Shown: one piece after another, positions 4,420-47,600 of the stretch
Numbering within the stretch: position 1 is the stretch's first letter
Layout of the letters: each line of letters opens with the position of its first letter
Assembly: GCA_001275005.1 (NCBI GenBank)
Contig: JWZX01003409.1
Location: forward strand, 62,001-121,428
DNA length: 59,428 bases
Direction of reading: 5' to 3'
Source: Chrysochromulina tobinii
Lineage: Eukaryota
Position numbers and translations under genes: made by a program
The notes under the pieces: model-generated
Databases searched by the model: none
The model's input: the letters and a program-made list of their open reading frames with translations, nothing else
What the model was told of the DNA's origin: nothing

Positions 4420-7382
4420 ATGCCGGCTACTTTCAAGCAAATCCAGGAGCTGCAGGCGCTGTCGGGGCGCAACCTGAAAGACTGCAAGGAGGCGCTCAAC
4501 AATCACGACTGCGACATCAAGGCCGCGTTGCACGCGTTGAACTCCGGCAGCAACCCCGATGCGGCGGCGGCGGCACCCGAGAGTGCTGAGAGTGCTCCTG
4601 CGAGTGCATCGGACAGTGCTGCAAACGAAGCGAAGGCAGCGTCAGAGAAGGCAGCCGCGGAGGCCGCTGCAGCTGAAAAGGCGGCAGCAGACGAGGCGGC
4701 CGCAGAGCAGGCAGCGGCGGAGAAGGTGGCTGCGGAGGCTGCAGAGAAGGCGGCAGCCGAGAAGGCGGAGGCGGAGAAGGCGGAGGCGGAGAAGGCGGAG
4801 GCAGAGAGGGCGGCGGCTGAGGAGGCAGCGGCCGAGGCGGCAGCGACTGAAAAAGCAGCAGCTGAGGCGGCGGCGGCCGAGAAGGCGGCGGCAGAGGCGG
4901 CTGCTGGCGAGGCGGCCGAGGCGGCGGCAAAGGCGGCGGCCGAGAAGGCGGCTGCTGAGAAGGCGGCGGCCGAGGCGGCGGCGGCCGAGGCGGCGGCGGC
5001 TGAGAAGGCGGCGGCCGAGGCGGCGGCGGCCGAGAAGGCAGCGGCTGAGGCGGCGGCGGCCGAGAAGGCGGCGGCCGAGAAGGCGGCGGCCGAGAAGGCG
5101 GCGGCTGAGAAGGCAGCGGCTGACAAGGCAGCCGAGGAGGAGCTCGCTCGTACGCTGAGTGTCGACTCACTCGCGGCGCGGGCGGCGGCTGAGAAGGTCA
5201 GACAGGATGCGGAGGCGCGTGCGGCCAAAGCGGCGGCGCGCTCGCCCCCGTCCGCCCCGTCGCCGCCGTCGGCCGCGTCGGCCGCCCCCCCTGTTGACCT
5301 CTCCGCGGAGCATGCTCGCATCCGAGGGCTGGCGGACGAGGCCGAGGCGGAGGCGGCGGCGCGCGCGGCCGCGGACGCCGCAGACGCCGCCGACGAGGCA
5401 GCTATCGGCTCATTGCTGATCCCCGCTCTGTCGACAGCCCGGCCCTCCAGCGCCCCCGCCGCTGTCGGTTCGACCCCCGCGGCAGCGGCGGCGGCGCGCT
5501 TGCCCGACGTGCCCAAGACGGCGCCCGACGTGCGCTGGCCGGCGGCGTCGCTCCTCAACCCGAGTCAGGATGCGGGCTTCGAGGTGGCCCTCAGCGATCT
5601 CGAGCCCTCCGAGATTCGTCAACTGCTCAGCCAGGATGGCGTGTCGTACACGGCGGACGACGAGGGCGATCTGACGCCCTTGGCGGTCGAGCTGCGTGCG
5701 CGCCATGCCGAGAGCGTCGCTGCGTGGCTGGCTGAGCGCCCAGGGAAGCACGCGCAGCCGCCCACGCCCTCGCTCGCCACGTCCTTGTGCCGCGTGGGCA
5801 CACCGGTCGCGCACCGCTGGACGCTCTGGCAGCGCGCCCTCGGCATCCACGTGATGCCGAGGCTCAAGCAGCAGGCGCCGCAGCTGCGCGCACTGCTCAG
5901 CACGGCGCTGCCCAATCAGGCAGAGCTCGAGGCGGACGCACAGGCGGCCCTGCTAGGCGCGCTCGGCGAGCGGGTGAGCGCGCTGCCCGACGGCGCGCTC
6001 GCGCTCCTGTGCCAGGAGTTCGCCTTCCACTTACTCGTGCTGCTCAAAAAGGCGCGCCTGCCTTATTCGGCCGATTTGGCGATCGCTCCGTTGCTCGCGC
6101 CCGTGCTGCTGCTTGCGGTGTTGCATGCGGGCGACCCGGCCGACGGCGCCCTCGGCCGCATGCAACTCGCCCTTCACCGAGCGGAGACGCTCAACGCCAT
6201 GTCGGCCGTGCTCGCCAAGTTGACCCCCGCGGTGATCGCAGGCGCTCCCTGGGGACTCGGGCCGACGGGCGCGCCCGCGACGGCGCCCAATGAGACGCTC
6301 CTGAGCCACGTGATGCTCTTCCTTCGATGGGAGTCTCCCGCGCTCGCTGAGCACCTACACGCGGCGCCTGGGATCTTGAAGGCACTCTCCCGCCTGATGC
6401 TTGGGCTGCTGGCGCCCGCGGCGGCGCCCGCGGCGGTCGTGCGCTTCATCGAGCTTGCGCTGTGGGAGTCTCCGACCGTGCCCAAAAGCCAGCCTGTCCT
6501 GCTGCTGTGCGCGCTGCTGCTGCGGGAGGAGACGCGCCTCCTCGGCGTGCCTGCGAGCAGCCTCGCGGGCACGCTCAGTGCCCAGCTGAGCGTGCCGAGC
6601 GTCGTGGAGGCCGATCGATTGCATGCTGCGGCCGCCGTGCTCAATACGACGCTACCCGTGACGCTGCGCGCCGCGCTCGACGCGGCTTGGTGTGCGGCTC
6701 GTCCGCCAGCGGCGTGCTTCGCGTGCGCTTGGCTCGAGCCGCCTGAGGTGCTCAGCAGCGGGGTGTGGGTGATCGACTTGAGATCGCATCGAGATTTTGA
6801 GGCAGCGCACTTTGCACTCACGTCGCACCTGCCGCCAGCCGAGGCGCGCGGGGCTGACGCGCGCGAGGCCGTGCGCCAGGAGCTCTTCGACATCTGTGCA
6901 GAGGGCGGCTTTACTCTCGCCTTCGTCACCGCCAACGACCCGAACGACGCCTCCGGCTCCAAGAGCGTCGTCGGCGCCGTCAAGAAGGGCAGCGCTCAGG
7001 GCAGCGCGGCTCCTGATGCGGAGCGGCTCACCTCCGAAGAGGTGCGCCTGCTCGTCCTCGAGATGAGGGATGATGGCCACTGATGGTGATTGATGATGTT
7101 CTGATGACCTCTGATGAGCTCCCTCATCAGGTGCGCATGGTCGTCCTCGAGTTTGTGCGCGCGGGCTTCCGCCACGTGGGCATCCTACGCGGTGGCCTCG
7201 CGGCGCTCTCCCCGGAGCAGCGCGTAGCCCTCGTGGCCTCCGACGTGCGCGGAGTGACGGTGGACGCGTCGAGCGAGCAGAACCCGAGTCGCCCGAGCAC
7301 TGCGGCGGCGCTGCGTAGTATGATGCCGCGGCTGCCCTCCCTTACGGCAAAGAAGGCCAAGGCGCCCATCCAAACGCTTTGA
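4420..7382 (+). CDS. TBC1D23-like protein (divergent TBC domain + rhodanese) with N-terminal EF-Ts-type UBA domain and Ala/Glu/Lys linker; exons 4420-7041, 7131-7382
   Basis: N-terminus [25 protein letters not shown] (EF-Ts N-domain-like). TBC-like [11 protein letters not shown] and [12 protein letters not shown]. Rhodanese [14 protein letters not shown] and [15 protein letters not shown]. Phase-0 intron at 7042-7130. Confidence 0.7.
4630..5140 (+). repeat. Coding low-complexity AAAEK / AAAE repeats
   Basis: Recurrent 15-nt units like gagaaggcggcggcc. Confidence 0.9.
7042..7130 (+). mobile_element. Introner-like intron (89 nt)
   Basis: Starts GTGCGCCTGCTCGTCCTCGAG, a copy of the downstream exon start GTGCGCATGGTCGTCCTCGAG (21 nt, 2 mismatches). 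Ends CTGATGACCTCTGATGAGCTCCCTCATCAG. Confidence 0.85.
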
Positions 7383-21161: not shown

Positions 21162-23351
21162 ATGCGAGCCGACCGGCGGCGCTCGTGGCGGCTTTCATCG
21201 CTCGAACTGTGCATTCTCTTGTGCATCGTTGTGCGACTCACACTTCTTTTGGTTGACAAAGGGGGCACTGGACTTCGAGTCATCCAAGCAGACTCCGTAG
21301 TCGAGTCGCGGAATGCACCGCGAGAGCTGTCTGTCAATGAGGCCATACGTCCAGCTCTGCCATCACTGTTGCCGCCTCCGCCGCCACCATCGCCCGAATC
21401 GAGCCCTGCCGTTATGCTCCTCGCAACCAGTCACGTGGCCAACACCATGGACCGTCGAGCACATCAGGCAGGTCCAGATGATGGTGCAACGGGGCCGCGT
21501 GAGCGTGAGCGAGAGGTGGGCACACTTGCTGGGTCGGAGCATGAGTACCGGAGCTGCTGTGCTCGCGCTTGGCGTGATCCATCAAGAAATGCGGCCATCG
21601 AGTTTTGCGACCAGGAAACGGACGCCACCGGCGATCGAGCAACGTCACAGCTCACGTGCTTCAGTGCTCCTTCCCTCAAGGCAACAGGCCACAGCTCTTC
21701 CTCGACCCCTGCCTGGTACTGTGACGCGCGACGTCTCGTGGTGAACACCAGCGCCGTGTCCATCGGCTCTGATGACCTCACCATCCCGACGCCCTCACAA
21801 AAGGGCCTCTGGCAGCGGCGCGCGCTGCTGCTCGACTGCCCGTTGCGTACGAGCGCGCTTAGCGAGCCGAGGCGCTTCGGGATGCTCCTGCGCCAACTGC
21901 TGCCCGTGCCGCTCGCGGAGCTCAGGGCCTCGTCTGTGGGGCGCGACGTGCTGGCGGGCGTGCTGGCGCGCCTCGGAACCGATGCGCACGGCGGCCAGGA
22001 CGAGGACAGTGAGGACGAGCCGACGATTGTCTTCGTGGCGCGCTACTCGGTCAAAAACTTCTTTCTGGCCCATTACGATCTTCTGCAGGTGCGTTGATTG
22101 CCACTGATGACCTGCCTTGCATGCAAGTGCTCATTCTGGCCCATTACGATCTTCTGCAGGTGCGTTGATTGCCACTGATGACCTGCCTTGCATGCAAGTG
22201 CTCATCGCCGCGCGTCCGACTCCCTCGAGCCTCTTCATCACGATCTTCTGCAGGTGGCGTCGATTGTTCTGCACGCACTCGGGCCGGAGCCGCGAGCGCG
22301 CACGCGCCTCGTCTTCATCCCTCCCGACAAGGCCAACCACGGCTGGTGGGGCCCGCAGAGGCTGCTCTGGGCGAGCTTCAGCGAGATTCCACCAGTCTCG
22401 TATGTGGAATGGCTTGCTGAGGAAAGGGCCCTGAGCGGCGCGGCAGGCGGCGGCGCGGGAGGCGGCGGCGCGGCGTTGAGTCATCGATCCGGAGCGCCGC
22501 AGACGCTGCTGCCGGTCCGCCGCGCAATCTTTGCCCTATCAGGCCTTCATTCCGTCTATGGTCGCGGATCGATCGGGCGTGCACTCGAAGGGGTCTGTGC
22601 GCCGTGCGCGGCAGCGGACGGCGCGACGAAGCGCCTCACGCGCGTCTCGGCGTTCTACCGGCTTTTCATCCAAGCGGTGCTGCACCGGACGGGCCTCTTC
22701 CAGCTGCCAGCGCCGCCGGCGCCGCTCGCCGCCACGGCTGCCGACGGCGGCGGTGGGAGAGACGCCCGAGACGACGCGTGGCTCGAAGGCGGGCTGTTGC
22801 GTGGCGTGTGGATCTCTCGGGGGAAGGGGCTCGGGCACGGGTACGGCAAGACTGTCGGCCGCCGGTGCCTCAACGAGCCCGAGGTGCTGCAGGCGCTCAA
22901 GAGCGCAGCCGTGGGACTCGCCCTCACGCCGCTCGAGCTGGCTGACGTGCCTTTCGCCGAGCAGCTGCAGCACTTTCGGCGAGCGGCGGTGGTGACCGGC
23001 ATGCACGGCGCCGGCTACGCGAACATCATCTTCCTCGCGCCGCGGGCGGTGGTCGCCGAGCTGTGCCCGCTGGGCTACTGCACCAAGTCGTACGAGCGCA
23101 TGTCCGCGCGCCTCGACCTCATCTACATGCGTTGGACCAACACGATCGCCGAGAACGCGAAACCAGGCTACGACACGGTCGTCGACGTGGGACAGTTCAC
23201 CAAGCTGATGCAACAAGCGGTGAGTGCGTTTCGGAGTGAGTCGCCTTCAGTAGCGTCGGACGAAGAACGCGGCGGCGCTGGGCACGTCGAGAAGGAGGAG
23301 GAGGAGGAGGAGGCAGAGACGACGTTCCTGATCGGATCGGATGATGACTAG
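21162..23351 (+). CDS. Glycosyltransferase family 61 (type II membrane); exons 21162-22088, 22254-23351
   Basis: N-terminal TM helix. RRCLNEPEV and PFAEQLQHFRRAAVVTGMHGAGYANIIFL..VVAELCP match the GT61 signature. Phase-0 intron. Confidence 0.85.
22089..22253 (+). mobile_element. Introner-like intron (165 nt) with 71-bp tandem duplication of the exon/intron junction
   Basis: GTGCGTTGATTGCCACTGATGACCTGCCTTGCATGCAAGTGCTCA occurs twice. The 3' end CATCACGATCTTCTGCAG copies the exon end CATTACGATCTTCTGCAG. Confidence 0.88.
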
Positions 23352-23641
23352 TGAACACACGCTCTCAGTTAACCGGCTCACAAGTCGATATTTGAGATTT
23401 GTGAAGAATCTTAATAAAGTGTGAAAACAACAAAACACGCACGCGCTCGGCCCGCCGGCACACCGCGCCTCCCGGCGCGGCTCGCGCGGCGGCCTCGGAG
23501 CGCGTCCCCATGCGCGGAGCATGCATGAAAGATGAATGCGGCAAGCACTCATGCTCACCCCATCCACCGCACCGAGCCACCGACTCGCCGGGCCGTGTGC
23601 TTGTCCGATCACAGTCAGACGTCGGGTCAGTCATAGGTCAG

Positions 23642-24611
23642 TCAGTGGGGCTCATTGCCGTCGGCCTGCGCAGCAAGAAGCGCGCCAATGTGCTCCGCAG
23701 CAGAAGTATGCGCTGCTTGCTCGCCCCCCACCTCGCCTTCCTCCTCGCCCTCCTCCTCCCCCTCATCCTCGACGTCCTCGCCCTCCTCCTCGCCCTCGTC
23801 GTCGGCCGTCGCGCTGCGCCTCCTCCGCAGCCTCGTTGAAGAGCACGCGCATCATGGAGTCAATGCGGCGTGTCGTGCGCAGCCGATCGGCCGCGAGACG
23901 CTCCCGGTTGTGCAGCTGCTCGGCCGTGGCGCGCCGCTCGCGAAGGTTGGTGACGATGAGCCCATGGAATCCATGGCTCTGTCCGAGATGATCTTCCACG
24001 CGAAAGTTGCGCGCGGCCTCGCGAAATGCGTCCCTGTGCGAGAGCTCGGGCTGCGCGGCCTTTATGCGTGCGACCTCGGTCCTCAAAAAGAGGTTGTACG
24101 CGCTCGTCCTCGACGGCGAGGTGAACGACCAGCCGAGATGCGCTCCGCAGCAGCAGTGAGCCATGCGCCACTCAAAGGGAGGGAACCAGCTGTGATCCGG
24201 CGACGGACGGCCCGAGAGGATGATGTGAGGTACGGGCACCGTGCGCACCACATCGAACCGCACAGCCCCGGGATTTGTCGCGCTGTAGGCCCAGTACTCC
24301 CGATCGAGCATGTCGAGCTCATACGAGAAGACGGCCGACTCGAGCGTCGTGGCCCGCTCGATCAAGAGCTCCTCTCGGGACACGATGGGGATGTTGCACG
24401 CGGCGCAGGAGAGCACCGGAATGTCGGCCTCCGGAATGTCGGGCACCGGAACCGCGTGCCCTGCGTCAATAAGAACAACCTGCCTCTGCAAATCTTCAAT
24501 CTGCTCTCTGAGCTCGATAAGTTGCTCTCGAGCCATGCCCTCAATCACGCCCTCAATCGCATCGTCAGATGACTGAAGCACGCGCACAACGTAATTGCCT
24601 GCAGGACCCAT
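23642..24611 (-). CDS. Cereblon-like CULT (Yippee/Mis18-fold) protein with inserted YABBY/HMG-like box and acidic tail; apparent +1 frameshift at 23816; start uncertain
   Basis: LSCAAC, NPGAVRFDVV, GRPSPDHSWFPPFEW, HCCCGAHLGWSF and FHGL match CULT. SAYNLFLRTEVARIKAAQPELSHRDAFREAARNF lies between GWSF and FHGL. The frame-corrected tail DDEGEEEGE... stops at 23642. Confidence 0.8.
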
Positions 24612-26931: not shown

Positions 26932-29035
26932 ATGCCTGAGAAGCAACTCGAGAAGCCTCTTCCTGACAGCAGTATCAGCAGCGACGAAAGTGTCAACGCG
27001 GTTCGCTCGCCCCAAAGGCGAGCCGTGGGAGCCGAGACAGCCGGTGACACTGTGACCGGGCTCGAGGACCTGACGCCTGCTGAGCTGGAAAGTGTTTACG
27101 TCGTTCAGGCGGACGCCGAAAATGATGCGCACGTTACCGGCGCGATGGAGGAGCCGCCTCCGGGCATCGTTATCTCGTACATGCTGCAGGAGGAGATCCG
27201 TGAGTCGGAGCTGCTCGATGACAAAGATCTCAACGAGGTGGACAGGCTCACCTCGTTGATTGATGAAGAGTTACACGATGAGCCCGTCGAAGCTATCACA
27301 CTCGAGGAAGCTTCGCAGGTTGACAAGCAGATCATCGAGGAGAAGCTTGAGCAGATGATCGAGCTGTACGACAACAAGGAGCTCATGGGGTCCATGCTCG
27401 AGTCCACGCTGCAGCCTGAGGATGCTATCCCGTACACGCTCGACGAGCTCACGGTGAAAGACCCTGCAGTTGCAGAAAGCCTGCCGCCCGCGGTTGCTGC
27501 GGCAGTCTACGAAAAGTACGGCTGCCTTCCGATCGCCGCCGGTGGACCCTTGGCGATCAGAGAGCTCGCTCAATCGTACATCGCATCGTCCGACATCGAC
27601 GACTCGTTTTACATCATGGACCTCGGCAACGTCCAGCGCTTGTACGACTCGTGGCACACGGCGATGCCACGCGTCACGCCATTCTACGCGATGAAGTGCT
27701 CGCCGATGCCCGCCCTGATCGACGTCCTTGCGGTGAACGGCTGCGGCTTTGATTGTGCCTCGGCGGCTGAGATCCAGCTCGCGCTCGACGCCGGCGTCTC
27801 GCCCGACCGCATCATCTTCGCGCACCCGGCCAAGCGGCCGTTTGACATCCGTTTCGCGGCGTCCAAGGGCGTGTGCATGACCACGTTCGACTCCATCGTT
27901 GAGCTCGACAAGATTGCCAAGTGGCACCCGAACGCGCAGTGCGTCCTCCGCATCCGTGCCGATGACCCGCTCCGCGCTGCATGCAAGTGCTCACCACGAC
28001 GCCCCCTCCTCTCCCCACAGGTGCGTCCTGCGCATCCGCGCCGATGACCCCGAGGCTGGCATCTCGTTTGGCATCAAGTACGGTGCGAACCTCGACGAGT
28101 ACGAGACGCTCATCTCCCACGCGAAAGACATCGGCCTCGACATGATCGGAGTTTCGTTCCACGTCGGCTCGCTTGCCAAGTCTGGCAAGGCCTTCTACCG
28201 CGCCATCGAGTGCGCGCGCAAGGCCTTCGACGTTGGCACCGCCTGCGGTTTCCACTTTTCGCTCCTCGACATCGGCGGCGGCTTCACGGGGCGCTTCAAC
28301 TCGTTTGGAATCGTCCAGTCGATGGTCGGCGAGATCCCGGCCTACATCAACGAGGCGCTCGAGAAATTCTTCGGCGCGGACACGCCCTTCGGCGACCTGA
28401 GGGTCATCGCTGAGCCCGGCCGCTTCTTCGCCGAAGCGTCGATGCATCTTGCCTGCCACGTGCACTCCGTGCGCAACCGCGTCGATCGAGCCTCGGCCGA
28501 CGACCCCGAAACGCTCGTCCCGACGTGTGACTACCTCATCTCCGACGGCCTGTACGGCTCGTTCAACTGCGTCGTCTACGATGGGGCAAAGCCCCGAGCT
28601 TGGCTCCTCCCGGGGCCCAACCTGCCCCCGATGGACACCGAGCTCAAGCGCTCCACAGGTCAGTACCACTGATTATCACTGATCACCACATGCGACTCGA
28701 TGGGCTGCGTCTTCACTCTGATTGCCATTGATTGCCATTGATTTCCTCCCTCATCACTGATTGCCTCCCTCATCACAGTCTTCGGCCCCACATGCGACTC
28801 GATGGACTGCGTCTTCAAGGACGTCATGCTGCCCCAGCTGCGCGTGGGCGACTGGCTCCTCTTTCCGCACTTTGGAGCGTACACCCTCGCCGGTGCCACC
28901 AACTTCAACGGCATCCAAAATGCCAACCCGAGAATCTTTTACGTCTGCTCGCAGTCTTCGGTTGACCAGGAAAACGCGGTGGTCATGTGGGCGTGCGAGA
29001 TGGAGAAGGCGCCCTCCTCGATCGTCGCCACGTAA
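26932..29035 (+). CDS. ODC: Ornithine decarboxylase (fold III PLP); exons 26932-27938, 28021-28658, 28779-29035
   Basis: PFYAMKC (PLP lysine), GFDCAS, VLRIRADD, VSFHVGS, LLDIGGGF, IAEPGRFF, DGLYGSFNC, FGPTCDSMD and GAYT. Confidence 0.93.
27939..28020 (+). mobile_element. Introner-like intron (82 nt)
   Basis: The first 30 nt copy the next exon start (2 synonymous-position mismatches), followed by TGCATGCAAGTGCTCACCAC...CCCCACAG. Confidence 0.88.
28659..28778 (+). mobile_element. Introner-like intron (120 nt) with internal 30-nt copy of downstream exon
   Basis: 28696-28725 matches exon 28788-28817 (1 mismatch). It carries iterated CTGATTGCC and CCTCCCTCATCAC modules. Confidence 0.85.
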
Positions 29036-29380
29036 AAATTTTTCGCTCGCGTGCATTCAGGTGAACGCGCGGATCTCTAGCAACCGGGAAAAACTGGCCC
29101 ATCCCTACTTTTTCCCGGTTGCTAAACAGATCCTAGATGCTAGATCTCGCGGTTGTTCATCGTTGGTCGTTGAGGAGCACAACCTCACGTCTGAGAAGAG
29201 AGAAGTACATTCAAGAAACTACAGTTTGGGCCTGACTCGACGTGTGTGCTTGTGTGTTAAGCGACCCGGATCCGTGAAACGGGAGCGCTTCACAGAAGGT
29301 CCAGAGCTGCAGTCCAGACGCTCAGTCCATCGCGGCTGTCAGGAAGTGACGAAACTGACTGACTGACTGTCGAAGCATAA

Positions 29381-30781
29381 TTGGCGTCCGTCTGGCATCA
29401 AACGCGTCGGCTCGCTCGCCGCATTTCGCGCGTTCACACCGGCTCGCGTGCGAGCAGCACTGCCATCTCCGCCGATCTCGATGAGGCCGCGCGGCTGATA
29501 TCGCTCGAGGAGGCGCACGGCGCGTTCAACTACGCGCCGCTGCCAGTTGTGCTTGAGCGCGGCCTGGGCGTGCACGTCTGGGACATCTCCGGGCGCCGCT
29601 ATCTCGACTTCCTCTCAGCATACTCGGCTGTCAACCAAGGCCATTCGCACCCCAAGATCCTTGACGCCTTGCAGCGGCAGGCGGCCAAGCTGACGCTCAC
29701 ATCGCGTGCCTTCCACAACAACGTGCTTGGCGAGTACGAGCGTTTCGTGACCGAGTATTTTGGCTACGACCGCGTGCTCCCGATGAATACCGGTGTCGAG
29801 GGCGGCGAGACCGCGCTCAAGCTCGCGCGCCGCTGGGGCTACGACGTCAAGGGCATCGCCAAGGACGAGGCTCTGGTACTCTTCTGCACCCACAACTTTT
29901 GGGGGCGCACGATCTCTGCGTGCTCGTCGTCGTCCGACCCGAGCTGCCGTGCCGGCTTCGGCCCCTACCTACCCGGCGTCCCCTTGGTGCCGTACAATGA
30001 CCTTGCGGCGCTCGAGGCCGCCTTCGCCCAGGACGGGGCGCGCATCGCTGGCTTTATGCTCGAGCCGATCCAGGTGCGTTGATTGCCAATGATGACCTGC
30101 CTTGCATGCAAGTGCTCACCACAGCGCATTGGACTCCCTCGAGCCATCCAGGGCGAGGCGGGCGTGGTGGTGCCTCACGAGGGCTACCTCCGAGGCGTGC
30201 GCGAGCTGTGCACGCGCTACAACGTGCTGATGATCGCCGACGAGGTGCAGACGGGGCTGTGCCGCACGGGCAAGATGCTCGCCTGTGACCACGAGCACGT
30301 GAAGCCGGACCTCCTCATCCTCGGCAAGGCGCTCTCGGGTGGCGTGTATCCAGTGAGCGCAGTGCTCTCGAGCGACGAGGTGATGCTCACGCTCCGCCCG
30401 GGTGAGCACGGTTCCACGTTTGGTGGCAACCCTCTCGGGTGCGCCGTGGCCATGGCGGCGCTCGAGGTGCTACGCGAGGAGCGGCTCGCCGAGAACGCGG
30501 CCCTCATGGGGGAGAGGCTGCGCGCGGGGCTCGCGGCGATCGGGAGCGATGCGGTCACAACGGTGCGCGGCCGGGGGCTGCTCAACGCGATCGTGATTCG
30601 ACCAGAGGGCGAGAAGCGGAATGCGGGCGCGCTCTGCTATGCGCTCAAGGACGTGGGGCTTCTTGCCAAGCCCACGCACGAGCACATCATCCGACTGGCG
30701 CCGCCGCTCATCATCACGGGCGCGCAGATCGACGAGGCCGTCGAGATTATCGCCAAGGAGACGCGCCGCATGTTTGGATGA
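29381..30781 (+). CDS. OAT: Ornithine aminotransferase (class III), mitochondrial-type leader; exons 29381-30073, 30152-30781
   Basis: [81 protein letters not shown] and [10 protein letters not shown]. Confidence 0.95.
30074..30151 (+). mobile_element. Introner-like intron (78 nt)
   Basis: The first 45 nt match the GT61 intron with one mismatch. The end CTCGAGCCATCCAG resembles the exon end CTCGAGCCGATCCAG. Confidence 0.9.
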
Positions 30782-31392
30782 ATCGGAAGCGTGGGAAGAG
30801 GAGTGGGAGAGTCTTGTTCGGTGGTCGAGAGAACCGCGGCGGAATTCAGACACGCAATCTGCTTCACGTTAAAAAAAACGCGGGGGGCGTCAGGTGGGCT
30901 TCAGACCTCAGCGTAGAGGCTGACTTTAAAGGCCGGACAGGTTAAACGAAGGTGTCTCACGACTCACCTGTGGCTGCGTGCTGCTGAGCGAGCGAGTACT
31001 CAGTACTTGTGTTGACCGAGGGGAGCGGAGCCGCCCTTGAAGAGCGCGGGGGGACCGACGACCGCGACGAAACTGACTGGCTGACTGACGTGTGGGAATT
31101 CGCAATTCGGTGATCGCATCTCAAAGTCCACGAATCGACGGAGCGCCGGCCGCGCCCCACTCCTTGAGGGTGGGCTCGCGGAGCACCGGTTGCTCTAACT
31201 CTCACCGCTTAAGCTCCTGAGTTTCCAAGAGATTTGGTTGCAGTTCTTCTCTGTGTCTCGTTTCACTGTTAACAAGTAAGCCCAAAGTCCACATCGCTCT
31301 CCCGCGTCAACACACCACGCCCATTGCCGGGCGGTCTATAGTGGTAGGTGGGTACTGGAGAGGAGCGGCGGCGCGTCGCCCAGCACGTCCCC

Positions 31393-34620: not shown

Positions 34621-37600
34621 ACCCACCCGCCGTCGGGATCGGCTCCCATCTCAACGATCGTTTCGCGCGAGCCTCGCCCCCGTAAGCCTCCCGAATCTCA
34701 GCCAGCAGCGGCAGGATGGTCGTCGGCTCGCCGCGCACGACCCGGGGTGCCGAGTAGAGGTGCGTGATCGGCATCTGCTTGCGCAATCGAAGCGCCTCCA
34801 TCGCCTTCTCAACGTTGCGCCGGCAGTGCGCCGTGGACCGCGGCTGCCGCTCCACGCCGAGCAGTGTGCGGCGCTCGAGGGTTTCGACGAGCGCGACCAG
34901 CTGCAGCCCATCGCGCCATGGGACGAGGGAAGCAGGCTCACGGACGCTCAGCTGCGTCGCGTGCTCCGGTACTCCGACCGCCCGCAGCCAGGCACCAAGG
35001 CGCGGCAAGTTGAGACCCTCAAGCTTGCTCATTGTGGCAGCCGCCTGGGCGGCAGTGGCCTCCGCCTCCTCCGCCTCCTCACTTCTCTGCTCAGCGCTCA
35101 GGGAGGCAAGTGCGGCAAGCGCGGCCTCCATAGACTCGGCGCGGCGCGCCACCGCCGACGGAGACTCGACGGATGGTGGCGGCGGCTGCTGCTGCTGCTG
35201 CGGCGGCGGCGGCTGCGAGGTCGCGGGCAGATACCACGACGTCGATGACGATGGCGGTGGCGGTGAGCCCAACGTCACCGAGCGCGAGGCGATCCAGGCG
35301 GCATTGACCGCGTCGGCTGAGAGGTCTGCTGCATCGGCGGCAAGGCCGGCGCTACGCCCACTACGGTGCGCCTGACGCACCGTAGCCTCCCCGCCGACGG
35401 CCGTGGCGCCTGTCCCCGCGACAGGATCGGTTCGAAAAGGTCGGTCGGGGAGCGTAACGGCCGTCGGGTAGTAGAGAGGATTGAATGGAGGGCCGGTGCT
35501 CGCCGGCGCTGATGAGCCGCCTCCCCCGGCAGCAGCGTACTGGCCCAACGTACGAACCACGGCGGCGCGAGCGCGAGCCTCGTCCGTCCCTCTGCCGGGG
35601 CTGCTTGGTCGTAGACTCGTAGTAGAAGTAGTGGTAGAATACTCTTTGGGCGGTGGCTCCTTGGCCCACGCCTCGAGGGACGCGAGGGCACCGTCCTTTG
35701 GCGATGTGGGCCGAGAGTGCGGCCTTGGCGGCGCCGACGTTGACGGCTCGGCGGTGCGCGCTCGGTGCAGAGCGATGCGCCGCGCTGCTAGTAGCCAGCT
35801 GAGGGCAGCGGCGCGATCCCCATGGAGCAGCTCGGCCTCGAGACCGATCTCCGCGTGCGAGGGCATCGCCGCACCACCGAGGGCCGCGTCCCTTAACCGC
35901 CGGGTGGCCTTGCGGATATTGGAGAGCGCGGTCGCGCAAGTGTACGGAGGGCGGAAGATGCACAAAATGGGCGCGCCCGAAACGTACGCGGCGACGTCAC
36001 AGAGCAGCTCACCGCTCGCCACGGCAGGCATGATCAAATCGAGTGTCGGCAGGCGCAGCGTCGAGGACGGCGGTGCGCGCGCGCGCGAGGAGTACAAGGC
36101 TCGACGGAGCCGGCCGCTCATGCCGCCGCCATCCACTGAGCGCGCAGGTGAGCGCTCGCCAGGACGCGGCGGCGAGGAGGAGGAGGCGCGTCCTGGCGAG
36201 CGCGGCGAATGCGGCGAATGCGGCGAGCGCGGCGAGCGCGGCGAGCATGGGGCGAGTGCGGCGAGCGGCGCGGAGCGCGGCGGCGAGAGAGAACTCGAGC
36301 GTGCGAGTGTCCGGCCCGCGGGAGATGCGACGAGATCGCGACCTCGCTCCGGGGAGATGCCACGGCTGCTGGGGCGTGCGGGCGAGGCGAAAGGGGAGGC
36401 GCCGCCCGACGGCCCATGTATCGTCCATGGGCTCAGCGGCGAGCGGCCTGGCGTGAGCGGCAGGCTCGAGCGACGACCGTCACCCTCGGCACCGCCTGCG
36501 CCGTTGCCTCCGCCGCCTGCGCTGTAGCCTCCGCCGCTGAGCCTGTCGGTTGGGGGCACGTGGACGGTGCGGATCAGGAGAGCCTCATGCAGCCAGTGCA
36601 TCAACTTGAATTCCGTCAGCGCGCCGACCACCCGCCCACCGGCGCGCCTCTCGTGATTGGCTCGCTGATCGCGCTCCTCACGCCAGCGCCGCCGAGGCTC
36701 AGGGTGAGGCTCAGGGTGGGCCTCGGTGGGGGAGCGACGGCCCGACGACGACGACGTATCGGCAGGTGGGCTCTCCCCGCGCAGGGGAGGGTAGGCGGAG
36801 CGGGCTGGCTCGGGCTCGCCATTGGGCAGGTAGCGCACATGAGGCGTCGCTTCCGCTGCTTCCGCTGCTTCCTCATCCGTCGCCGCCTGTGAGTGTGTGG
36901 CACGGCGCGGCGCGTCGTGGTGGGCACGACGGGACGCGCGTCGTGGCGGCGCGGCGGCGGGCGGCGCGGGGTTGAACTTGCGAAGCCACGAGAGCAGCCG
37001 CCACACGGGCTGTGTGTCTCCCGCCGTCACGGAGGCCACTGCCCTTCGCAGGAGGACGAGCTCCGCGCGCGGGACGACGACACGGCCCCCCGTCACGCCC
37101 CGCCGCAGCTCGTCGACCGCAGCCAGCAAGTTGGCCTCGCTGTGCATGGGCGCCCTCGGCTTCGGATACGGCGGGCGCCGCCGGCGTGGGCCCGCAGCGA
37201 GGCCCTCACGCGCCGCCTCCTCGGCCAGTCGAAGTGCAGGGTCGGCGAGGCGTGTGGCGACCTCGAAGAGGAGGGTGCCGTTGCAGATGGGGCTCTGCTC
37301 GGGCGAAAGGGAGAGGCACTCATCCGGTGCGTCGGGGCAGGCTGCTTGCCGACGCAGCGGCGCCGGCTCCGCCACATCGATCAGAAAGGAGCGCCGCAGC
37401 CACGTGTGCACGAGCGCGCGGCCGGCCTCGGTCTCCCAGAGCGCTGCCTCGGCGGCCTTCTCGGCGGTCACCTCGGCTGCCGCGATCGCCCAAGACGGCG
37501 CCGCAATCTCGGCCGCCACCTGCACGGAGATGCCTCGCATGCTGGCCGGCAGCCTGAGCCGCTCATCGCTCGCCGTCCTTGGCAGCGAGGCGGGCAGCGA

Positions 37601-40220
37601 GGTGGGCGGCGGCACCACGGCGGTAAGCATGGTGAGATGCTCGACGGCGGCATTGATCAGGCTTAAAGGTACACCTGCCACCCTCGCCGCATGCAACGCT
37701 TGCTGCAGAGCCGCGGGCTGTGCACGTCCCATTGCCTTCTCCAACTGCTTCATGCTCGCCGCACGCAGATGCGCGCACAGCGACGACGCATGGGCAGACG
37801 CGAGCGCGTTCAGCCAAGCCGCAAAGTTCGAGGCGGCGGCGTGCTCATCATGGTGCTTGTCCTCGGTGGAGTCCTCGGGAATCTCGCCCAGGCCCGCGGC
37901 CAGCTCGTCGGTGAGCTTGTCGGGAATGGCCGCCGCCAGCGTGCTCAGCACATGCAGCACTACCGGCTCGCCACCCCGCTTGAACAGAGCGTCGAGCTCG
38001 GAGATGGCGCCGGACACCCCGACATCCGCTGCAGCCTCTGCGGCGGGACGTGCACGTGCTGACAAGAGAGCCGGGATCAGGTGGGCCACGCGCGCGTCCA
38101 GGCGGAGACGCTCACCCGCCGCCGCCACCCTTTCCGCGGCGCCTTCTCGCGTCAAGCTGGAGGCCTCCGCCGTGTGTCTCCTCGGGGAGTTGGGGTCCGT
38201 TGGCGGCGGCGGCGTTGCCGGGTCGCTCGCACCGGTAGACGAATGTGACCGGTCGCTCGCACAGGCCCAGCGCACCGTGGCCTGCGAGCCCATCCGTGAC
38301 ATCCGCGAGGTCGAGGGTGGCCGCAGAGCCGACGGCAGTTGCGAAGGTGGCGGTGGCGGCGGCGGCGGCGGCGCGCGCGATGTGGCACCTTCGGTGACGG
38401 CCGCCCGCTTTGCTGCGAGCGCGGCAGCCGCATCGATCCGGTCCACCGCGCGGCGCTGCCGGAGCGTTTGCGGCGCCTCGGCGCGCGGGAGCGCGTACGT
38501 CGCGTACAGGTACGTAAGCAGCGACCAGAGCACCTCGGCCTGGCCGGTGGCAAGTGCGGTCGCCGACCAACGGAGATCGCCGCGAGGGAGAGGACCTTGC
38601 TGACGGAGCGCGCTGAGGGCCGCTTCGAAATTGGACACGCGCGCCGCGAGCGAGCGAGGGCGCAGATCGATGCCCGGGATGCGCCCGACGGTCTGCACCG
38701 TAGCGGGCGTCGACAGCCAGTCGCCCCGCAGCCGCTCCACCATCAAGCAAAGCAGCACACCCGACTCAAAGGCGGCAGGAACGTCAGCCGGGCGGTAGAT
38801 GGACGAGAAAGGCGTGCGCCGACGCGTGGGTGCGCTGCTCGCCCGTCGCGGCTGGTCCGTTGCACCATTCGAGGCCACAGCGCCGCCGCCGCCGCCGCTC
38901 AGCACGTCGCGCGTCGTGGAGAGGGTGGCATACATCTCATGCAAGGGAGGTCGGGCAAGCGAACCGGCGCAGTCGTGAGCGGGCCACGAAGAGCGCGCCT
39001 CTTCGGGCGCGAGTGGGAGCGCGAGCTCGCGCATCCAGCTCACGATCTCCTCGCGCGAGATCGGGGCGCGGCGGCCGCCACGTGGCGTCAGCCCCGGCGG
39101 CCGCCGCCACGAGGGCATGGACGGTATGCGGCGCGTCCATTTCACCGCGTGGGTTGGCGGCGCGGCGTCTGCGCTCCTTCACGCCGCTGTCCTCGTCCGC
39201 CCACGAGCCGTCCTTCCAAAAGAAGAGCGACGCCATCGGCCGCGGCAGCGTTGCATGCGTCATCGAGAGCCGACGGCCCGCGCTCCGTCCGGCTGCCGCC
39301 GCTCTGGCCGCCGCCGCTGCCGCATCGTAGCCCACTGCCCATGCGGGGTCGGTGAACAGTCGGCGCGCCGGGAAGGCACGCTCGAGCGTCGCGAGCAGTT
39401 CAGCGCGCTCCGAGGCGGCAGTGGAGGCGGAGGCGGCGCCAGCGGCGCGCGCGGCAGCGTGGGCGGCGACGCGGGTGGCAGCAGTGGTGTCCCCACCTCT
39501 CGTTTGCGCGTCCGCCTGTTTCAATGCGGAGGCGGCATCCCTACAAACAGGTGCAGCAAGATGGCTGGCGGCGGGTGCCGGCACCGTGGCGCCCGTGGAT
39601 TTCTGCGCCGCTCCCGCCGCCTCCACCGAATCCTCGGGCCGCGCGCGCATCACAGCCATAAAGTGGCGCTCGCCTCGCACAGCCACGAGCCTGCCACCGC
39701 GCTTAGCCGAAGACGTGGGCACAACACTGCTCGGAGACGACTCATCGACGCCACTCTTGGTGACGGCCGTGCAGAGCACGCGCGCAAGCACAGATAGATG
39801 CCTTGCGTCGCCCGCGTGCATCGCGTCGGCCGCACCTGGCGAACGCAGCTTGGCGGCTGCTGGAGGCCAGGCGTCCAAAAGAGCATCACGCGAGAGCCCC
39901 AGCAGACGCTTCTCCAGCTCGTCGAGGACGCCGTTCAAGCGATCAACCGGCCGCACGTCTGGGGCGATGAGTCGGCGCGCGGCCGCGCGTTGCGCGGACG
40001 TTTTTGCGATCGCGATCAGCATCTCTGCAAAGGTCTTGCCATCTCTCAACTCGTCCAGGCTGTTGACGAGTGCGCAGCAGTTGAGCGGCATGGCGTTGAG
40101 CTCAAAGACGGCAGCCTCATGCGACAGGTCGTCGGCGGACGGTAGCGTGGACCAGCAACGCCCGTCGTCGTTGGAGGGACCAGGGTCGCTGGGCGGAGAG
40201 TAAGAAGGGTTGAGGGGCAT
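34577..40220 (-). CDS. Large protein with about 5 calponin-homology-like domains; frame break (+1) around 39060-39175
   Basis: CH-like motifs LDELRDGKTFAEML, FESGVLLCLMVERL..NFEAALSAL, CNGTLLFEVATRL..NLLAAV, ASGELLCDV..NIRKA and WRDGLQLVALVETL..NVEKAMEAL..VVRGE. The two ORFs differ by one frame. Confidence 0.7.
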
Positions 40221-40362
40221 TTCTTTTGCCGCCACTCGTGGCGCCGTATCGCGCGCACTTATTTCCAAGAGGGGAGGCGGACCGCGGCGCGCCGCGCCGA
40301 TCTTCTCTCGCTCGGCCTGGAAACCACAATGTGTGCCGAATTCCGCAGACGATTGAATGCAT

Positions 40363-42213
40363 ATGGCGCGAAGGCGCCCGCCCGACATCGACGCGGCCAA
40401 CCGGCACATCTTCGGCCACGCTTCCTTCCGCACCGCGCAGCGCGACATCGTCATCGACATACTCGATGATAAGGACGTCTTCGTGCTGCTGCCGACCGGC
40501 GGTGGCAAGTCCCTTTGCTTCCAGCTCCCAGCGGTTCTCTCGTACGGGGTAACGATCGTCGTGTGTCCGCTGCTCGCGCTCATGCAGGACCAGGTGCAGG
40601 CGCTCGTGCGCGGCGCGGACGCAGCCGACCCGGCGCTGCGCGGCGTGCCTGCCACGTTCCTGTCGTCGACAGCAAAGGTGGGCCACGCCAATGCCGTCTT
40701 CGCGGACCTGGAACGTGGCACCTACGGCGACGGGCAGGAGCCGATCACCAAGTGCCTGTACGTGACGCCCGAGCAGCTCGCAAGCAGCGGTCGGCTGCGC
40801 AGCGCACTGCAGAAGCTGGCGAGCTGCCAGCCGCGGCTGCTCGCGCGCATCGTGGTGGACGAAGCGCACTGCGTGAGCGGCTGGGGCCACGACTTCCGAC
40901 CGGACTACAAGGAGCTCGGCGGGCTGCGCCAGCTGCTCCCGGGCGTACCCATCGTCGCGCTCACCGCCACCGCCACCGCCAAGTGCGTCGTGGACATCCG
41001 CAAGATGCTCAAGATGCGCCCGACGACCGCCATGCACCAGACCTCCTTCAACCGGTCCAATCTGCGTTACGAGGTGCGCCGAAAGGCGCCGAAGGACAAG
41101 GAGCGGAGTGCTGAGCAGGCGGCGTGCGCGCAGCTCGTCGCGTACATCAAGACGTGGCCGCCGCGCACGTGTGGCATCGTCTACTGCCTCTCGCAGGCGG
41201 ACACCGAGAAGTATTGCGACGTGCTGCTCCATGCGGGCCTGTCCGCCGGCGCGTACCATGCCGGCATGAGTGCCTCAGGACGGCGCGCCGCGCAGTCCGC
41301 GTGGATGCGCGGCGAGGCGGCTGGCGGCTTCGCGGTCATGTGCGCTACGATTGCGATGGGGATGGGCATCGACCAGAGCTGCGTGCGCTTCGTCGCGCAC
41401 GTGTGCCTGCCGAAGTCCCTCGAGGCGCTCTACCAAGAGAGCGGGCGCGCTGGCCGGGACGGCGCCTACGCAGAGTGTGTCATCTTCTACGCCCCGAAGG
41501 ACTACGCCCGCGTCGTGCACATGTGCCGCATGGGCAAGGGCACGCGCGCCGCGAAGGCGAAAGACAAGGAGCGCGCGAAGCAGGTCAAGGCTTACTGCGA
41601 GGCCTCCGACGGTTGCTGCCGTCGCGTGTCTTTACTGGAGCACTTTGGCGAGGTGGCGAGTGCGCAGCTCTGTCGATTCGAGGGGCACTCGGGCATGTGC
41701 GACGTGTGCGCGCCCCGCCCCGCCGAGGGTGAGGAGGCCGCGGCGGCGGTACCAGGGGCCAGAGGTGGCGGCGGCGCGCAGGGCGACGACGCCGACGACG
41801 GCTTCCGCCCGAAGAAGCGGAAACGCCTTGAAGCTATCGCCGAGGGCAAGACAGGCGCCATCGGCCCGGCCATGCAGCAGGTGGCTGCGGCAGCAGCATC
41901 CTCGGGCGCCGGAAGCCGTCCTGCGCTCCCAGGTGACGCAGCCCGAAGGAAAGCGAGCGCTGCGGCCAAGGGTGCGGTGCCTGCGCCGCCCGCCGTGGCC
42001 AACCCGTGGGAAGCAGCGAGGATAGCCGCGCCGCGCCCCGCCGCTCCCGTTGCGCCCGCTGCAAATGCGCTCCACTTTCGCGGGTCAGCGCTGGTGAACG
42101 CGGTTAGGGTGGGCGACAAGCGCAAGCAACCCTTCGCAGCGACTGTGCCAGCCGCTCGCGGCCGCGCTGGCGAGGATGTGATTACCATCTCGGATAGCGA
42201 TCTCAGTGATTGA
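40363..42213 (+). CDS. RecQ-family DNA helicase
   Basis: [71 protein letters not shown] and a Zn module [12 protein letters not shown]...CDVC. Confidence 0.95.
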
Positions 42214-42969
42214 TGGGGTTTTTTCCGGCTGCTAGCTAGTATCTGACCAAACACGGCAGCAACCCCTCGTGCGCCGTCGTGGCGTACGATAATCGATATC
42301 GAGAGTGACCGACCCTTGAAACCCTCTCCGCGTTACCCCGACGCTTGCGCTTTGATCATCATCCCGATCGCGTATGGTATCGTAGTATTCATTGTTCAAT
42401 CTTCAAATATACCGCGCCTCGACGTGCTTTATAAGTAAACGAAACCGGGGTCACCGTCTGAACATCTCGCTCAGCTCGTCGGACGTGCCCAGGGGAGTAT
42501 ATTCTTCCAGGTGCGGATGGAGCCGGTACGGTCCTTCTTGCCCTTCTCGGCGTCGGCCCGCTCCTTCGCAGCCTTGAGTTCGGCCACCTGTACGCTCCTT
42601 GCGCTTGGCGAGCTCGTACTTGCCGCGCAAATTTCGCTTGACAGCTCCTCCTGTAGCTGGGTCCCCTGCGGCACGCGCTCCTGCCGCCAGAGAGCGCGCA
42701 CCTCCTCGATGGCTGGCCGGCCCGGCGGCATCGCGAAGAGCAGGAAATCGGTGTGCCTCTTGTCCAACGGCTCGACGCGCGCGACGCGCCCCTCGGCGAG
42801 AAGCTCGTCCACGTCGACGACCTAAAAGGCCTCTGAGGTGAAAACCCGCAGATGATCTGAAATTTGGCCGCGCGCCCGATCATTCTGACTCGTGGCTTTG
42901 CATGTGAGCCAGGGCGAGCGTGTGCGATCTTGGTGTTCTCGGCTGCGATCGTCCAAGGGATGGCCAACT

Positions 42970-44670: not shown

Positions 44671-47600
44671 ATGCCACCGACAGTGATCAGCCGCGCAAAG
44701 GCCAACGCGGGCAGAGGCGCTCCTGTCGAGTCCTCTTCTGCCGCCGCCATTCCCGACTCGTCGACCGACGCTCTCGAAAAGGTCCGTCAGCAAGCCCGCC
44801 GCCTCGTCGAGCAGCAGCAGCAGCTGCAATGCGCCCTGGCCTATGGCAAGCTGTGTGAGCGTCGGATCTTGCAACTGCAGCCCGACCACGCCCTACCTCT
44901 GACCGCCGAGCACATAAAGCAGCAGCAGGAGGAGCCGCGGCCAAGGCCGGGGCTCCCACCCAAGCCGCAGCCGAGCGGCGGCGGCGGCAGCGAGACAGTG
45001 CCGAGCAGCGAGCTGGACGCCATGCGCGAGCGAGCCGAGCTCGCTGAGGCGGCGTTAGCCCGCGCCAGAGGGAGACTTCCAGCCCGCCGCTCTCCGACAC
45101 GCGCCGCCAACGCGGGCGAGCCGTCCACCAGCGGCGCTGACGGCAGCAGCGGCAGCAGCGGCAGGACTGCCACCGCTGAGGATCAGCTGCAGATCGCGAG
45201 CGTCGAGGCGCTGCGCGAGGCGCTGCGCGCGGCGCGCGAGGAGACGGAACGCCAGCGCAAGGTGGCGGCCACGGCGGCGCGCGAGTCGATGAAAGCGCTC
45301 GAGGAGGCGGCGCGCACGGCGGGAATGCCCAACGGGAGCGCGCAAGTGCTACGAGCGCATGCGGCGAGCGAGCGCACCATCAACGAGCTCAAGGCACGTG
45401 TCGCCGCCGTCGAGAGTGCCGACGCGGCTCTTCGCGAGCAGCTGAGGAGCGCGCATGCGGACGCGCAGCTCGCTGCGGGAGCCCTCAAAGCCGAGCGCGA
45501 AGGGCACCAGGCGACGATGGCGAAGCTGGCGGACGCCGAGGCGGCCGCACGCGAGGCTACGAAGCAAATGGCCGCCGCGGCCAGCGCACGCACGCAGCAC
45601 GAGGTGGAGCGCGCTGCGTTGCTCGAAGCGTACGAGGAGCTCGAGGGCACGGCCCGCAGGGCTGCGAGCAAAGCCGAGCAGACGGAGAGCGCGGCAGCGG
45701 AGGCGGCGACAACGCGCGATCAGGCTGTGGTGGCGCTGAAGCGGGCGGAGGCGGCGCGCGAGGCGGCCGAGAAAGAGGCGGCCGCGCTGCGCCTCGAGAT
45801 GCAGAGTGCTCAGTACAGCGCGGCCACAGAGCTACAGAGTGCTCAGCGCTCGCTAGCCGAAGCCGTTGAGAGGGAGAGGGCGGCCGAGGCGAAGGCGAGC
45901 AAGGCGGCGGCGGCGGCAGCGGCCGTGCTGGAGGCGGCGGACAGTGCAGCGAAGGAGCGGCGCGCCCTCGAGAGCCTGCATGACGAGGCGAGCACCGCGC
46001 TCGAGACGGCGCGTGCCCAGCTCGCGCACGCGCGCAAGCAGGTTCTCGAGGCGGAGGCGGGCGCAGCTGCGGCGAAGGCGAAGGCTGAGGAGGCCATCGC
46101 CGAGGCGCAAGAGCAAGCGAATGCCGCGAAGGCGCAGGCCAAGGCGGCCATCGCCCAAGCGCGGATGGAGGCAGAGGTGGCCATCAGTGAGACGCAGGCG
46201 CAGTACAAGGCGGCGATCGCCGCCGCGCAGGCACCGACCAAGGCGGCGATTGCCGAGGCGCAGGCAGAGGCGAAGGCGGCCATGAACGAGGCGAAGGCGG
46301 AGACGATCAAGGCGCGCTCGGAGACGGCAGAGGCGGCGGCCAAAGCGAGCGCGGCGCGGGCTCAGGCGGAGTCATGGGCGCGGGCGGAGGCAAAGGCAGC
46401 GGTCGAGGCGGCGGATGCAAAGGCAAAGGCGGCTGTCGAGGCGGCGGAGGCGAAGGCGAAGGCGGCTGTCGAGGCGGCGGAGGCGAAGGCGAAGGCGGCT
46501 GTCGAGGCGGCGGAGGCAGCATCCAAGGCGACCAGCGCGCGGGCGCAGGCGGAGGCCAAGGCGGCCATCGAGGCGGCAGAGGCGGCCTCCGCGCGGGCGC
46601 AGGCCGACGCGTTGCGCAGGGCGTCCGAGGAGGCCGAGCGAGCTCTGGCGGCGCTCCGAGCCCAGCTCACTGAAGCGCACGCGCAGGCGGCGGTGGCGGC
46701 CGCGAACGCCGCCGCGAGCGAGAAACGCGCCGAGGCGGCGGAGGCGGCGGCCGTGACCGCGGGCCAGGGCGCGGCTGCCGCGGCCGCGAGCCAGAACGCG
46801 ACGGCGTCGGCGATCGCCTCGGTGGCCGAGACGGAGGCGCGGCTGCGAGCGCGCGCCGAGGCAGCGGAGGGGGCGCTCGCGGCGGCGCAGGCGGAGGCGG
46901 CGAGCGCGCGCGACGAGCAGTCGATTGAGCGCAAGGGTCTCCTCTCGGAGCTGCATGCTCTCCATTTGCAAGCCTCCAAGCTCGACGAACAGGTGCGCCT
47001 TGGGCAGCAAGCGCGGCTCGTTGAGGAACAGAAGCGCCAAGCGGTGCTCGGTGAGCGAGAGGCGGAGCAACGGCAGGCGACGCAGCTTCGTGCGCAGCTC
47101 GACGACTCTCATCGAGTGCTGATGACCAATGATGACCAATGATGACCAATGATGACCACTGATTGCTTCCCTCATCAGGTGCGCAGCTCGACGATCTGCA
47201 GCAGCAGCTCGAGGCAGCGCGCGCCGCCCATGCCGCTGAGCTCGCTGCCGTCGAGATCAAGCTGTCCGCCGAGCGTGCCGACTCGCAACGCTCAGCGATT
47301 GGCGCGGCGGCAGCGCAAGCGGCGCAGCTGCGCGCGGCGGCCGAGATGGCGGCGGCGCAGGCGTCGGAGAGGGCAGCTCGCAAGGAGCTTGATGCCGCCG
47401 CCGAGGCGCGAAAGGCCGCCGTCGAGCGCGCGCTTAGTGAAGCGAAGCGAGAGGCGGCGGAGGCTGCGGCGGCGGCAGTGCGCAAGGCAGTCTCGGACGC
47501 GGAGGTGCTCGCGCAGGCGGCCGAAGCGCGACCCTGATGACGTCTGATTGCCTCGCTCTGATGACGTCTGATTGCCCCCCTCATCAGGTGCTCGCGCAGG

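What the first reader, a model, noticed from the sequence alone, without database searches (positions are those of the whole stretch)
7042..47587. Two complementary splice-site recruitment modes
In 5 introns (7042, 27939, 31996, 47090, 47505) the duplicated exon segment begins with GTG and supplies the donor, while the insert supplies the acceptor (CCCTCATCAG or CCCCACAG). In 3 introns (1706, 22089, 30074) the duplicated segment ends in CAG and supplies the acceptor, while the insert supplies the donor (GTGCGTTGATTGC or GTGTGGATTGC). Either way splicing removes one duplicate plus the insert and restores the coding sequence exactly. Donors at 27939 (CA|GT) and 47090 (TC|GT) lack an AG|GT proto-splice site, so plain tandem duplication of AGGT cannot explain them.
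Basis: partly seen in the sequence, partly recalled or inferred. Interest (0 to 1): 0.8.

Follow-up and report, generated by a model that had tools for sequence, protein, structure and literature searches.

The report
Half-copied introns with duplicated exon ends
In a freshwater alga, many short introns are made of a shared sequence that carries one splice site plus an 11-44 base duplicate of the host exon that supplies the other, and they likely spread by being partly copied from existing introns, a route to new introns that a published survey of the closest sequenced species did not list.

Summary
Real. All 8 introns sit at the stated coordinates. The host is Chrysochromulina tobinii or a close relative. 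RNA contigs splice the CA|GT donor at 27939. In 129 family elements from metagenomes, 54 were type A (duplicate gives the donor) and 15 type B; duplication side predicts which splice site the shared module carries (p=3e-12). 54 stayed below threshold. Exclusivity is strong, not absolute: window intron 28659 carries both sites.

Taking one splice site from a target duplication is known for introners. New here: duplications are long and variable (11-44 nt), there are no terminal inverted repeats, copies resemble each other at one end only, neighbours resemble each other most, and some introns carry exon pieces from other genes. Empty alleles are implied by public proteins. A 2025 survey lists C. 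tobinii with 0 introner families.

Best model (0.5, inferred): template switching onto an existing intron, then re-entry upstream. RNA versus DNA template is unresolved. The scan had no look-alike of this DNA; one note reports flank-duplicated introns in another protist (untested).

The parts
1456..1706 (-). Type B intron, 251 nt, in a UDPGP-family (PF01704) gene; module donor, four 57-nt tandem units, acceptor in a 14-nt copy of the upstream exon end
7042..7130 (+). Type A intron, 89 nt; donor in a 21-nt copy (7042-7062) of the downstream exon start (7131-7151); satellite-like insert ending in the CCCTCATCAG acceptor
22089..22253 (+). Type B intron, 165 nt, in a glycosyltransferase-61 gene; holds a 71-nt tandem duplication (exon end plus 5' module) that leaves an inner CAG|GT at 22159/22160
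27939..28020 (+). Type A intron, 82 nt, in ornithine decarboxylase; CA|GT donor in a 30-nt copy of the downstream exon; core and CCCCACAG acceptor from the insert
   Evidence: RNA joint GT..AG in X14 and X15, absent from DNA run X7; same intron in metagenome locus L064; position empty in proteins P0001, P0090, P0095
28659..28778 (+). Ninth family intron (not in the finding), 120 nt, in ornithine decarboxylase: donor and acceptor both from the insert, 5-nt flanking repeat, and a copy of about 30 nt of the downstream exon in the middle (28686-28715)
   Evidence: loose ends in 3 of 3 RNA runs read across the splice; intron-less homolog in DNA runs X3 and X7
30074..30151 (+). Type B intron, 78 nt, in ornithine aminotransferase; module donor and core, acceptor in a copy of the upstream exon end (6 nt exact, about 15 with one gap); in-frame stop if unspliced
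   Evidence: RNA pieces stop at 30074 and restart at 30146; position empty in P0087
31996..32059 (+). Type A intron, 64 nt, in a zinc carboxypeptidase (M14) gene; donor in an exact 23-nt copy of the downstream exon
   Evidence: no RNA joint among rows shown
47090..47178 (+). Type A intron, 89 nt; TC|GT donor in an exact 16-nt exon copy; 10-nt tandem satellite; CCCTCATCAG acceptor
   Evidence: no RNA joint among rows shown
47505..47587 (+). Type A intron, 83 nt; donor in a 28-nt exon copy (1 mismatch); CCCTCATCAG acceptor
   Evidence: no RNA joint among rows shown

Best explanation
These are spliceosomal introns of one high-copy family, each built from part of a shared module plus an 11-44 nt duplicate of the host exon, and they likely arise when a repair or replication polymerase copies an exon stretch, likely switches by short homology onto an existing family intron, copies one end of it, and likely re-enters the gene upstream so the stretch is written twice. 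Shown: the anatomy, the side-to-site association, splicing at 27939 and 28659, variable duplication length, lack of inverted ends, resemblance between neighbours, exon pieces carried between genes. Inferred: the switch itself, the enzyme (Pol theta-like end joining or aborted synthesis-dependent annealing), and that exons keep mainly those products that splice out exactly, namely duplicate beginning at a usable GT plus the intron's 3' end (A), or the intron's 5' end plus duplicate ending in AG (B). A and B behave as sister lineages that tend to beget their own type. Whether the template is DNA or intron RNA is open.
For: Duplications 11-44 nt, median 24, no fixed length, in 65 clean elements. 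No inverted ends: best 2-7 of 14 matches. Inner junction varies; the 10 of 53 type A copies joined directly share 3.1 nt on average against 0.73 expected (p=2e-4). Passengers: the L117 intron holds the 5' part of the L069 intron, which is a copy of L069's own exon; L099/L100, L005/L006, and window 22089/30074 share non-consensus pieces. Copies on one contig are more alike than copies on different contigs (45 vs 9271 pairs, p=1.6e-4). The variant after the core tracks type: 4 of 53 A vs 8 of 12 B (p=4e-5). Tandem arrays of exon end plus intron part (1706 x4, 22089 x2, L124, L138, L023, L126) and the patchwork intron 28659. Positions are empty in orthologous proteins and in the paralog on long genomic contigs, which favours gain. 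Tandem duplications with microhomology and templated, patchwork insertions are the published signature of Pol theta end joining (PMC8654963, passages).
Against: 43 of 53 type A inner junctions have 1-28 extra bases, mostly of untraced origin, so microhomology is measured on 10 only. The test for homology at the outer junction was not significant (p=0.08-0.10). Outer ends fall exactly at splice sites, which an RNA template explains without selection. Mismatches between the two copies avoid codon position 2 (24/8/30, p about 0.02), which suggests some duplicates came from a diverged allele or paralog. The prediction that non-spliceable copies in coding DNA have 3n length was not supported (1 of 5 vs 3 of 10). 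Generic repair does not by itself explain why this one family reaches so many copies. Duplications in PMC8654963 are about 100 bp to 10 kb, far longer. Same-contig pairs are not independent.
Confidence: 0.5

Rival explanations
1. Target-primed reverse transcription of excised intron RNA by a non-LTR retrotransposon enzyme: type A is a 5'-truncated copy primed at the intron's AG end, type B an internally primed copy that runs to the GT end; the duplicate is a variable target-site duplication.
For: Variable duplication length; fixed outer end with variable inner end; L117 holds the L069 intron from its GT to its AG; sense orientation in 58 of 65 by codon score; about 5% of classified introners are non-LTR derived (PMC12130899).
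Against: No A-rich tail at the 3' end of inserts; mirror-image type B needs a second priming mode; local resemblance and tandem arrays that include exon are not typical of it (own knowledge); no partner enzyme could be sought (no genome).
Confidence: 0.22
2. In-place remodelling: a full two-ended family intron is already at the site, and misaligned recombination with an intron-less allele, paralog or cDNA replaces one end with exon sequence. The duplicates would then not mark the insertion event.
For: Position-2 deficit and symmetric GC/AT changes (22 vs 22) between copies; 4.2% mismatch, close to the divergence of a second homolog in RNA contigs (15 of 556, 30 of 636); intron-less homologs exist; mosaic protein P0107 suggests exchange between paralogs; back-to-back introns at one junction (L023, L126).
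Against: Two-ended copies are rare (2 of 130); for 27939, 28659 and 30074 only empty or same-type forms were seen; it does not explain exon pieces carried to other genes (L069/L117).
Confidence: 0.18
3. Classic MITE-type DNA-transposon introner with one carried and one co-opted splice site.
For: Same logic of splice-site recruitment (PMC9860276; bioRxiv 2020.10.14.339549).
Against: No inverted ends, no fixed 3-9 nt duplication, variable inner end.
Confidence: 0.03
4. Plain tandem duplication of AGGT-containing exon, with later filling by repeats; or an assembly artefact.
For: AG|GT is enriched at type A donors (23 of 53 vs 8% background); 6 of 129 elements have the duplicate on both sides of the junction.
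Against: 30 of 53 A and 10 of 12 B lack AG|GT; the acceptor or donor comes from a shared module; the 27939 intron recurs in a separate metagenome (L064) and is spliced in RNA.
Confidence: 0.04

Closest known systems
Introners with one carried and one co-opted splice site (Symbiodinium carries the acceptor; marine Chrysochromulina sp. TARA_PON_109 family 5 carries the donor; PMC9860276 Fig. 2, read in parts 1-2 and passages)
   Same: One splice site from the insert, the other from a target duplication; mRNA restored; both polarities known; aquatic protist host of the same genus name.
   Different: Published duplications are 3-9 nt and fixed per family, with similarity to near both ends; here 11-44 nt, variable, similarity at one end only, both polarities around one core, no inverted ends.
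Polarella glacialis introner-like classes (bioRxiv 10.1101/2020.10.14.339549, parts 1-2 read)
   Same: One class can make introns in several frames and orientations.
   Different: Flexibility there is a shift of a few bases around a fixed 3-8 nt duplication of an intact element; here the element itself is one-ended and the duplicate replaces a third to a half of the intron.
Intron gain by tandem genomic duplication and by double-strand-break repair (Daphnia direct repeats), as reviewed in PMC3443670 (passages)
   Same: Direct repeats of host exon flank or form the new intron.
   Different: Most copies lack AGGT, and the insert is a repeated family with branch-site-like core and splice site, not a one-off filler.
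Pol theta end joining with tandem duplication and templated insertion (PMC8654963, passages); small duplications at 3' overhangs (PMC8355091, abstract)
   Same: Duplication with microhomology and patchwork templated inserts at the junction.
   Different: Not described there as a source of introns or of a self-propagating family; enzyme involvement is untested here.

Membership tests
Introner (Gozashti 2022 working definition) | Many similar introns in unrelated genes | tested here: met
   9 in the window in 7 genes; 139 distinct elements in 140 loci, scan stopped at its limit
Introner (Gozashti 2022 working definition) | Similarity extends to near both splice boundaries | tested here: not met
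   Of 130 elements: 73 acceptor end only, 22 donor end only, 2 both, 33 neither; definition
Introner (Gozashti 2022 working definition) | New positions, absent from orthologs or paralogs | tested here: met
   Read from protein translations only: 27939 empty in P0001/P0090/P0095, 28659 in P0104/P0109, 30074 in P0087, both ODC sites in the paralog; DNA joint across 28659
Introner (Gozashti 2022 working definition) | Spliced so that the mRNA is restored | tested here: met
   RNA joint at 27939, loose ends at 28659, pieces at 30074; the other six by open frame only
MITE-type DNA-transposon introner | Terminal inverted repeats | tested here: not met
   2-7 of 14 terminal matches in 65 inserts
MITE-type DNA-transposon introner | Fixed short target-site duplication (3-9 nt) | tested here: not met
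   11-44 nt, 28 different lengths in 65; the score threshold excludes shorter ones
MITE-type DNA-transposon introner | Autonomous transposase in the genome | not testable with these tools
   No genome held
Non-LTR (TPRT) insertion | Variable-length target duplication | tested here: met
Non-LTR (TPRT) insertion | Fixed 3' end with 5' truncation | tested here: inconclusive
   True of type A, mirror image in type B
Non-LTR (TPRT) insertion | A-rich or simple-repeat 3' tail | tested here: not met
   Inserts end in a pyrimidine tract and AG (read by eye)
Non-LTR (TPRT) insertion | Partner reverse transcriptase | not testable with these tools
   No genome held
Tandem AGGT duplication | AG|GT inside the duplicated segment supplies both sites | tested here: not met
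   23 of 53 A and 2 of 12 B have it
Pol theta-type templated duplication | Junction microhomology | tested here: inconclusive
   Excess in 10 direct joins of 53; outer junction p=0.08-0.10
Pol theta-type templated duplication | Templated or patchwork inserts | tested here: met
   28659, L069/L117, L099/L100, L005/L006; a handful of cases
Pol theta-type templated duplication | Dependence on the enzyme | not testable with these tools
   Needs genetics

The most novel reading that the evidence does not exclude
A transposase-free, self-propagating intron lineage: existing introns act as templates that are half-copied into new exon sites, each birth building a new chimeric intron whose exon-derived end can be passed on to daughters, so thousands of introns descend from one another with a readable pedigree and escape introner screens.
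Probability: 0.4. Interest if true: 0.88.

Novelty: new variant of a known kind. Interest (0 to 1): 0.7.

Why it matters
How new spliceosomal introns arise is a long-standing question, and large-scale gain is now credited mostly to transposon-like introners found by requiring similarity at both intron ends. This family fails that filter by its build, and the closest named genome is scored as having none, so such screens may undercount a route to intron gain. The alga is cultured and sequenced, positions look polymorphic between strains, and carried exon pieces mark parent and daughter introns, which makes the mechanism directly testable.

Tried and rejected
No whole genome or record handles were available, so the genome-wide count rests on one metagenome scan selected on a 20-nt core. 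Core in viral contigs: 0. Core in prokaryote genomes: 4 stretches, about 2 expected by chance, none with family flanks. Rfam on 21500-32500: 0. Outer-junction homology test: not significant. Mismatch excess at donor positions 3-6: none (12/212 vs 48/1060). 3n length of non-spliceable copies: not supported. Donor-side test on 28 donor matches: null spoiled by same-locus tandem pairs, no result. Protein P0092 looked like a different intron end at the 30074 site, but it cannot be told from a diverged copy at protein level. Antisense or intergenic copies: 15 elements have a duplication and no splice option, several in non-coding-like DNA, but some are repeats inside larger introns and strand could not be assigned. 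Huff et al. 2016 was not held; it is known here only through PMC11282704 and the Polarella preprint. Literature searches listed no paper on this family; most subscription papers are outside the library, the 2022 supplement was cut when stored, 2 of 14 files of the 2025 supplement were not searched, and bioRxiv supplements are closed.

Full report
Observation. The window is GC-rich eukaryotic DNA. A paralog of its ornithine decarboxylase clusters with a Chrysochromulina tobinii protein, so the host is that species or a close relative; no genome was held. Five start with a 16-30 nt copy of the downstream exon; against random pairings (maximum score 7 in 158) they score 15-25. Three end in a copy of the upstream exon (14, 18-26 and 6 nt ungapped). 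Hosts are unrelated housekeeping genes (Pfam hits for 6 of 8 pieces). A ninth intron, 28659-28778, has both sites from the insert and a copy of the downstream exon in its middle.

Splicing. Laying contigs of three RNA runs and one DNA run on 27700-30300 gave the joint 27938->28021, GT..AG, in two RNA runs and not in DNA, so the CA|GT donor is used; loose ends in all three RNA runs read across 28659; RNA pieces stop at 30074 and restart at 30146. These are contigs, and some come from a second homolog. One search covered 31996, 47090 and 47505 but showed no joint among 15 of 111 rows. The summed depth over the core in the DNA run is about 90,000 against about 40 for single-copy pieces; the tool warns this is no copy number, so I take it only as a sign of many hundreds to thousands of copies.

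Beyond the window. One metagenome scan for the 20-nt core shared by both types returned 140 loci and stopped at its limit: 169 matches, 151 elements, 139 after dropping 12 duplicates, 129 after dropping 10 near an edge. With a threshold above the 99th percentile of 638 permuted pairings, 54 were type A, 15 type B, 6 had the duplicate on both sides, and 54 stayed below threshold, among them gapped, short or tandem cases. One permuted pair scored 211, so de-duplication was imperfect. Duplication side predicts the module end (53 of 54 A acceptor, 12 of 15 B donor; p=2.6e-12). Ignoring duplications, 73 of 130 elements have only the module acceptor, 22 only the donor, 2 both, 33 neither (p=4e-8). 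A second acceptor subfamily picked up in the flanks, not selected on the core, was type A in 8 of 19. The sample mixes repeat assemblies of cultures with lake samples and cannot contain copies cut inside the core.

Anatomy. In 65 clean elements (53 A, 12 B) duplicates are 11-44 nt, median 24, with 70 mismatches in 1656 nt. Introns are mostly 62-92 nt; 29 of 53 type A keep none of the type B 5' module. There are no inverted ends. Only 23 of 53 A donors are AG|GT and 2 of 12 B acceptors precede GT, though G and AG before the donor are enriched over background. The five bases after the core differ by type (p=4e-5), so A and B look like sister lineages.

Clues to mechanism. Direct inner joins show excess microhomology, but only 10 of 53 are direct. 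Copies on one contig are more alike (p=1.6e-4, 9 of 45 pairs above the 95th percentile). The L117 intron contains the start of the L069 intron, itself a copy of the L069 exon; L008 and L084 share an intron end that matches both target exon ends. Arrays of exon end plus intron part are common. Translations of public contigs imply empty alleles at 27939, 28659 and 30074 and family introns at other positions of the same genes; I saw proteins, not DNA, and a partly spliced transcript could mimic an empty allele, though one such contig is 7.4 kb. Against my reading: the outer-junction test and the 3n test were negative, and mismatches avoid codon position 2, which fits copying from a diverged allele.

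Mechanism. I favour template switching onto an existing intron with re-entry upstream, filtered by splicing (0.5), over reverse transcription of intron RNA (0.22) and in-place remodelling (0.18). The switch, enzyme and filter are inferred.

Comparison. Recruiting donor or acceptor from a 3-9 nt duplication is known across introner families (PMC9860276: parts 1-2, passages, one supplement searched) and flexibly within Polarella classes (preprint parts 1-2). PMC11282704, PMC12130899, PMC3443670 and PMC8654963 were seen as passages; PMC8355091 and PMC12403724 as abstract and outline. The 2022 screen required similarity near both boundaries; C. tobinii appears once in its stored supplement, in the genome list, and the 2025 dataset gives it 0 families. 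So this works like an introner but fails the two-ended, inverted-repeat and fixed-duplication tests. Searches listed no description of it. The scan's own notes held no look-alike by sequence or place; by words they gave other protist families.

Verdict. Observation confirmed, interpretation supported with exceptions; new variant of a known kind; interest 0.7.

Noticed in passing
window 22063-22253: A 71-nt duplication puts CAG|GT inside the intron, so it could be removed in two steps with a zero-length exon; similar back-to-back introns in L023, L058, L066, L126.
   Followed up: partly
window 26933-29035 (ornithine decarboxylase): DNA depth suggests about three homologous copies; protein P0107 looks like a mosaic of this copy and its paralog, hinting at gene conversion or a chimeric assembly.
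   Followed up: partly
window 29400-30780: A second homolog 3-5% diverged is present in RNA and DNA contigs while 35227-42480 is one 7 kb piece without variants: ploidy or haplotype structure is uneven.
   Followed up: no
window 4590-5130 and 45700-51130: Long alanine/glutamate-rich coding repeats (15, 33 and 102 nt periods) in coiled-coil-like genes.
   Followed up: no
window 3268-3819 (minus strand): Three 195-nt repeats that look like WD40 units, apparently broken in frame (reading by eye).
   Followed up: no
window 30988-31038 and 31211-31222: Short stretches shared with other loci: RNA loose ends at 30988/31038 and DNA depth near 3000 at 31211, suggesting another dispersed repeat between two genes.
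   Followed up: no
L010, L004, L091: Tandem arrays of core plus flank with 45 or 39 nt period lying in stop-free frames, possibly translated.
   Followed up: partly
L142:3001-3032: In an actinobacterial genome the core motif sits at the centre of a long palindrome; probably chance.
   Followed up: no
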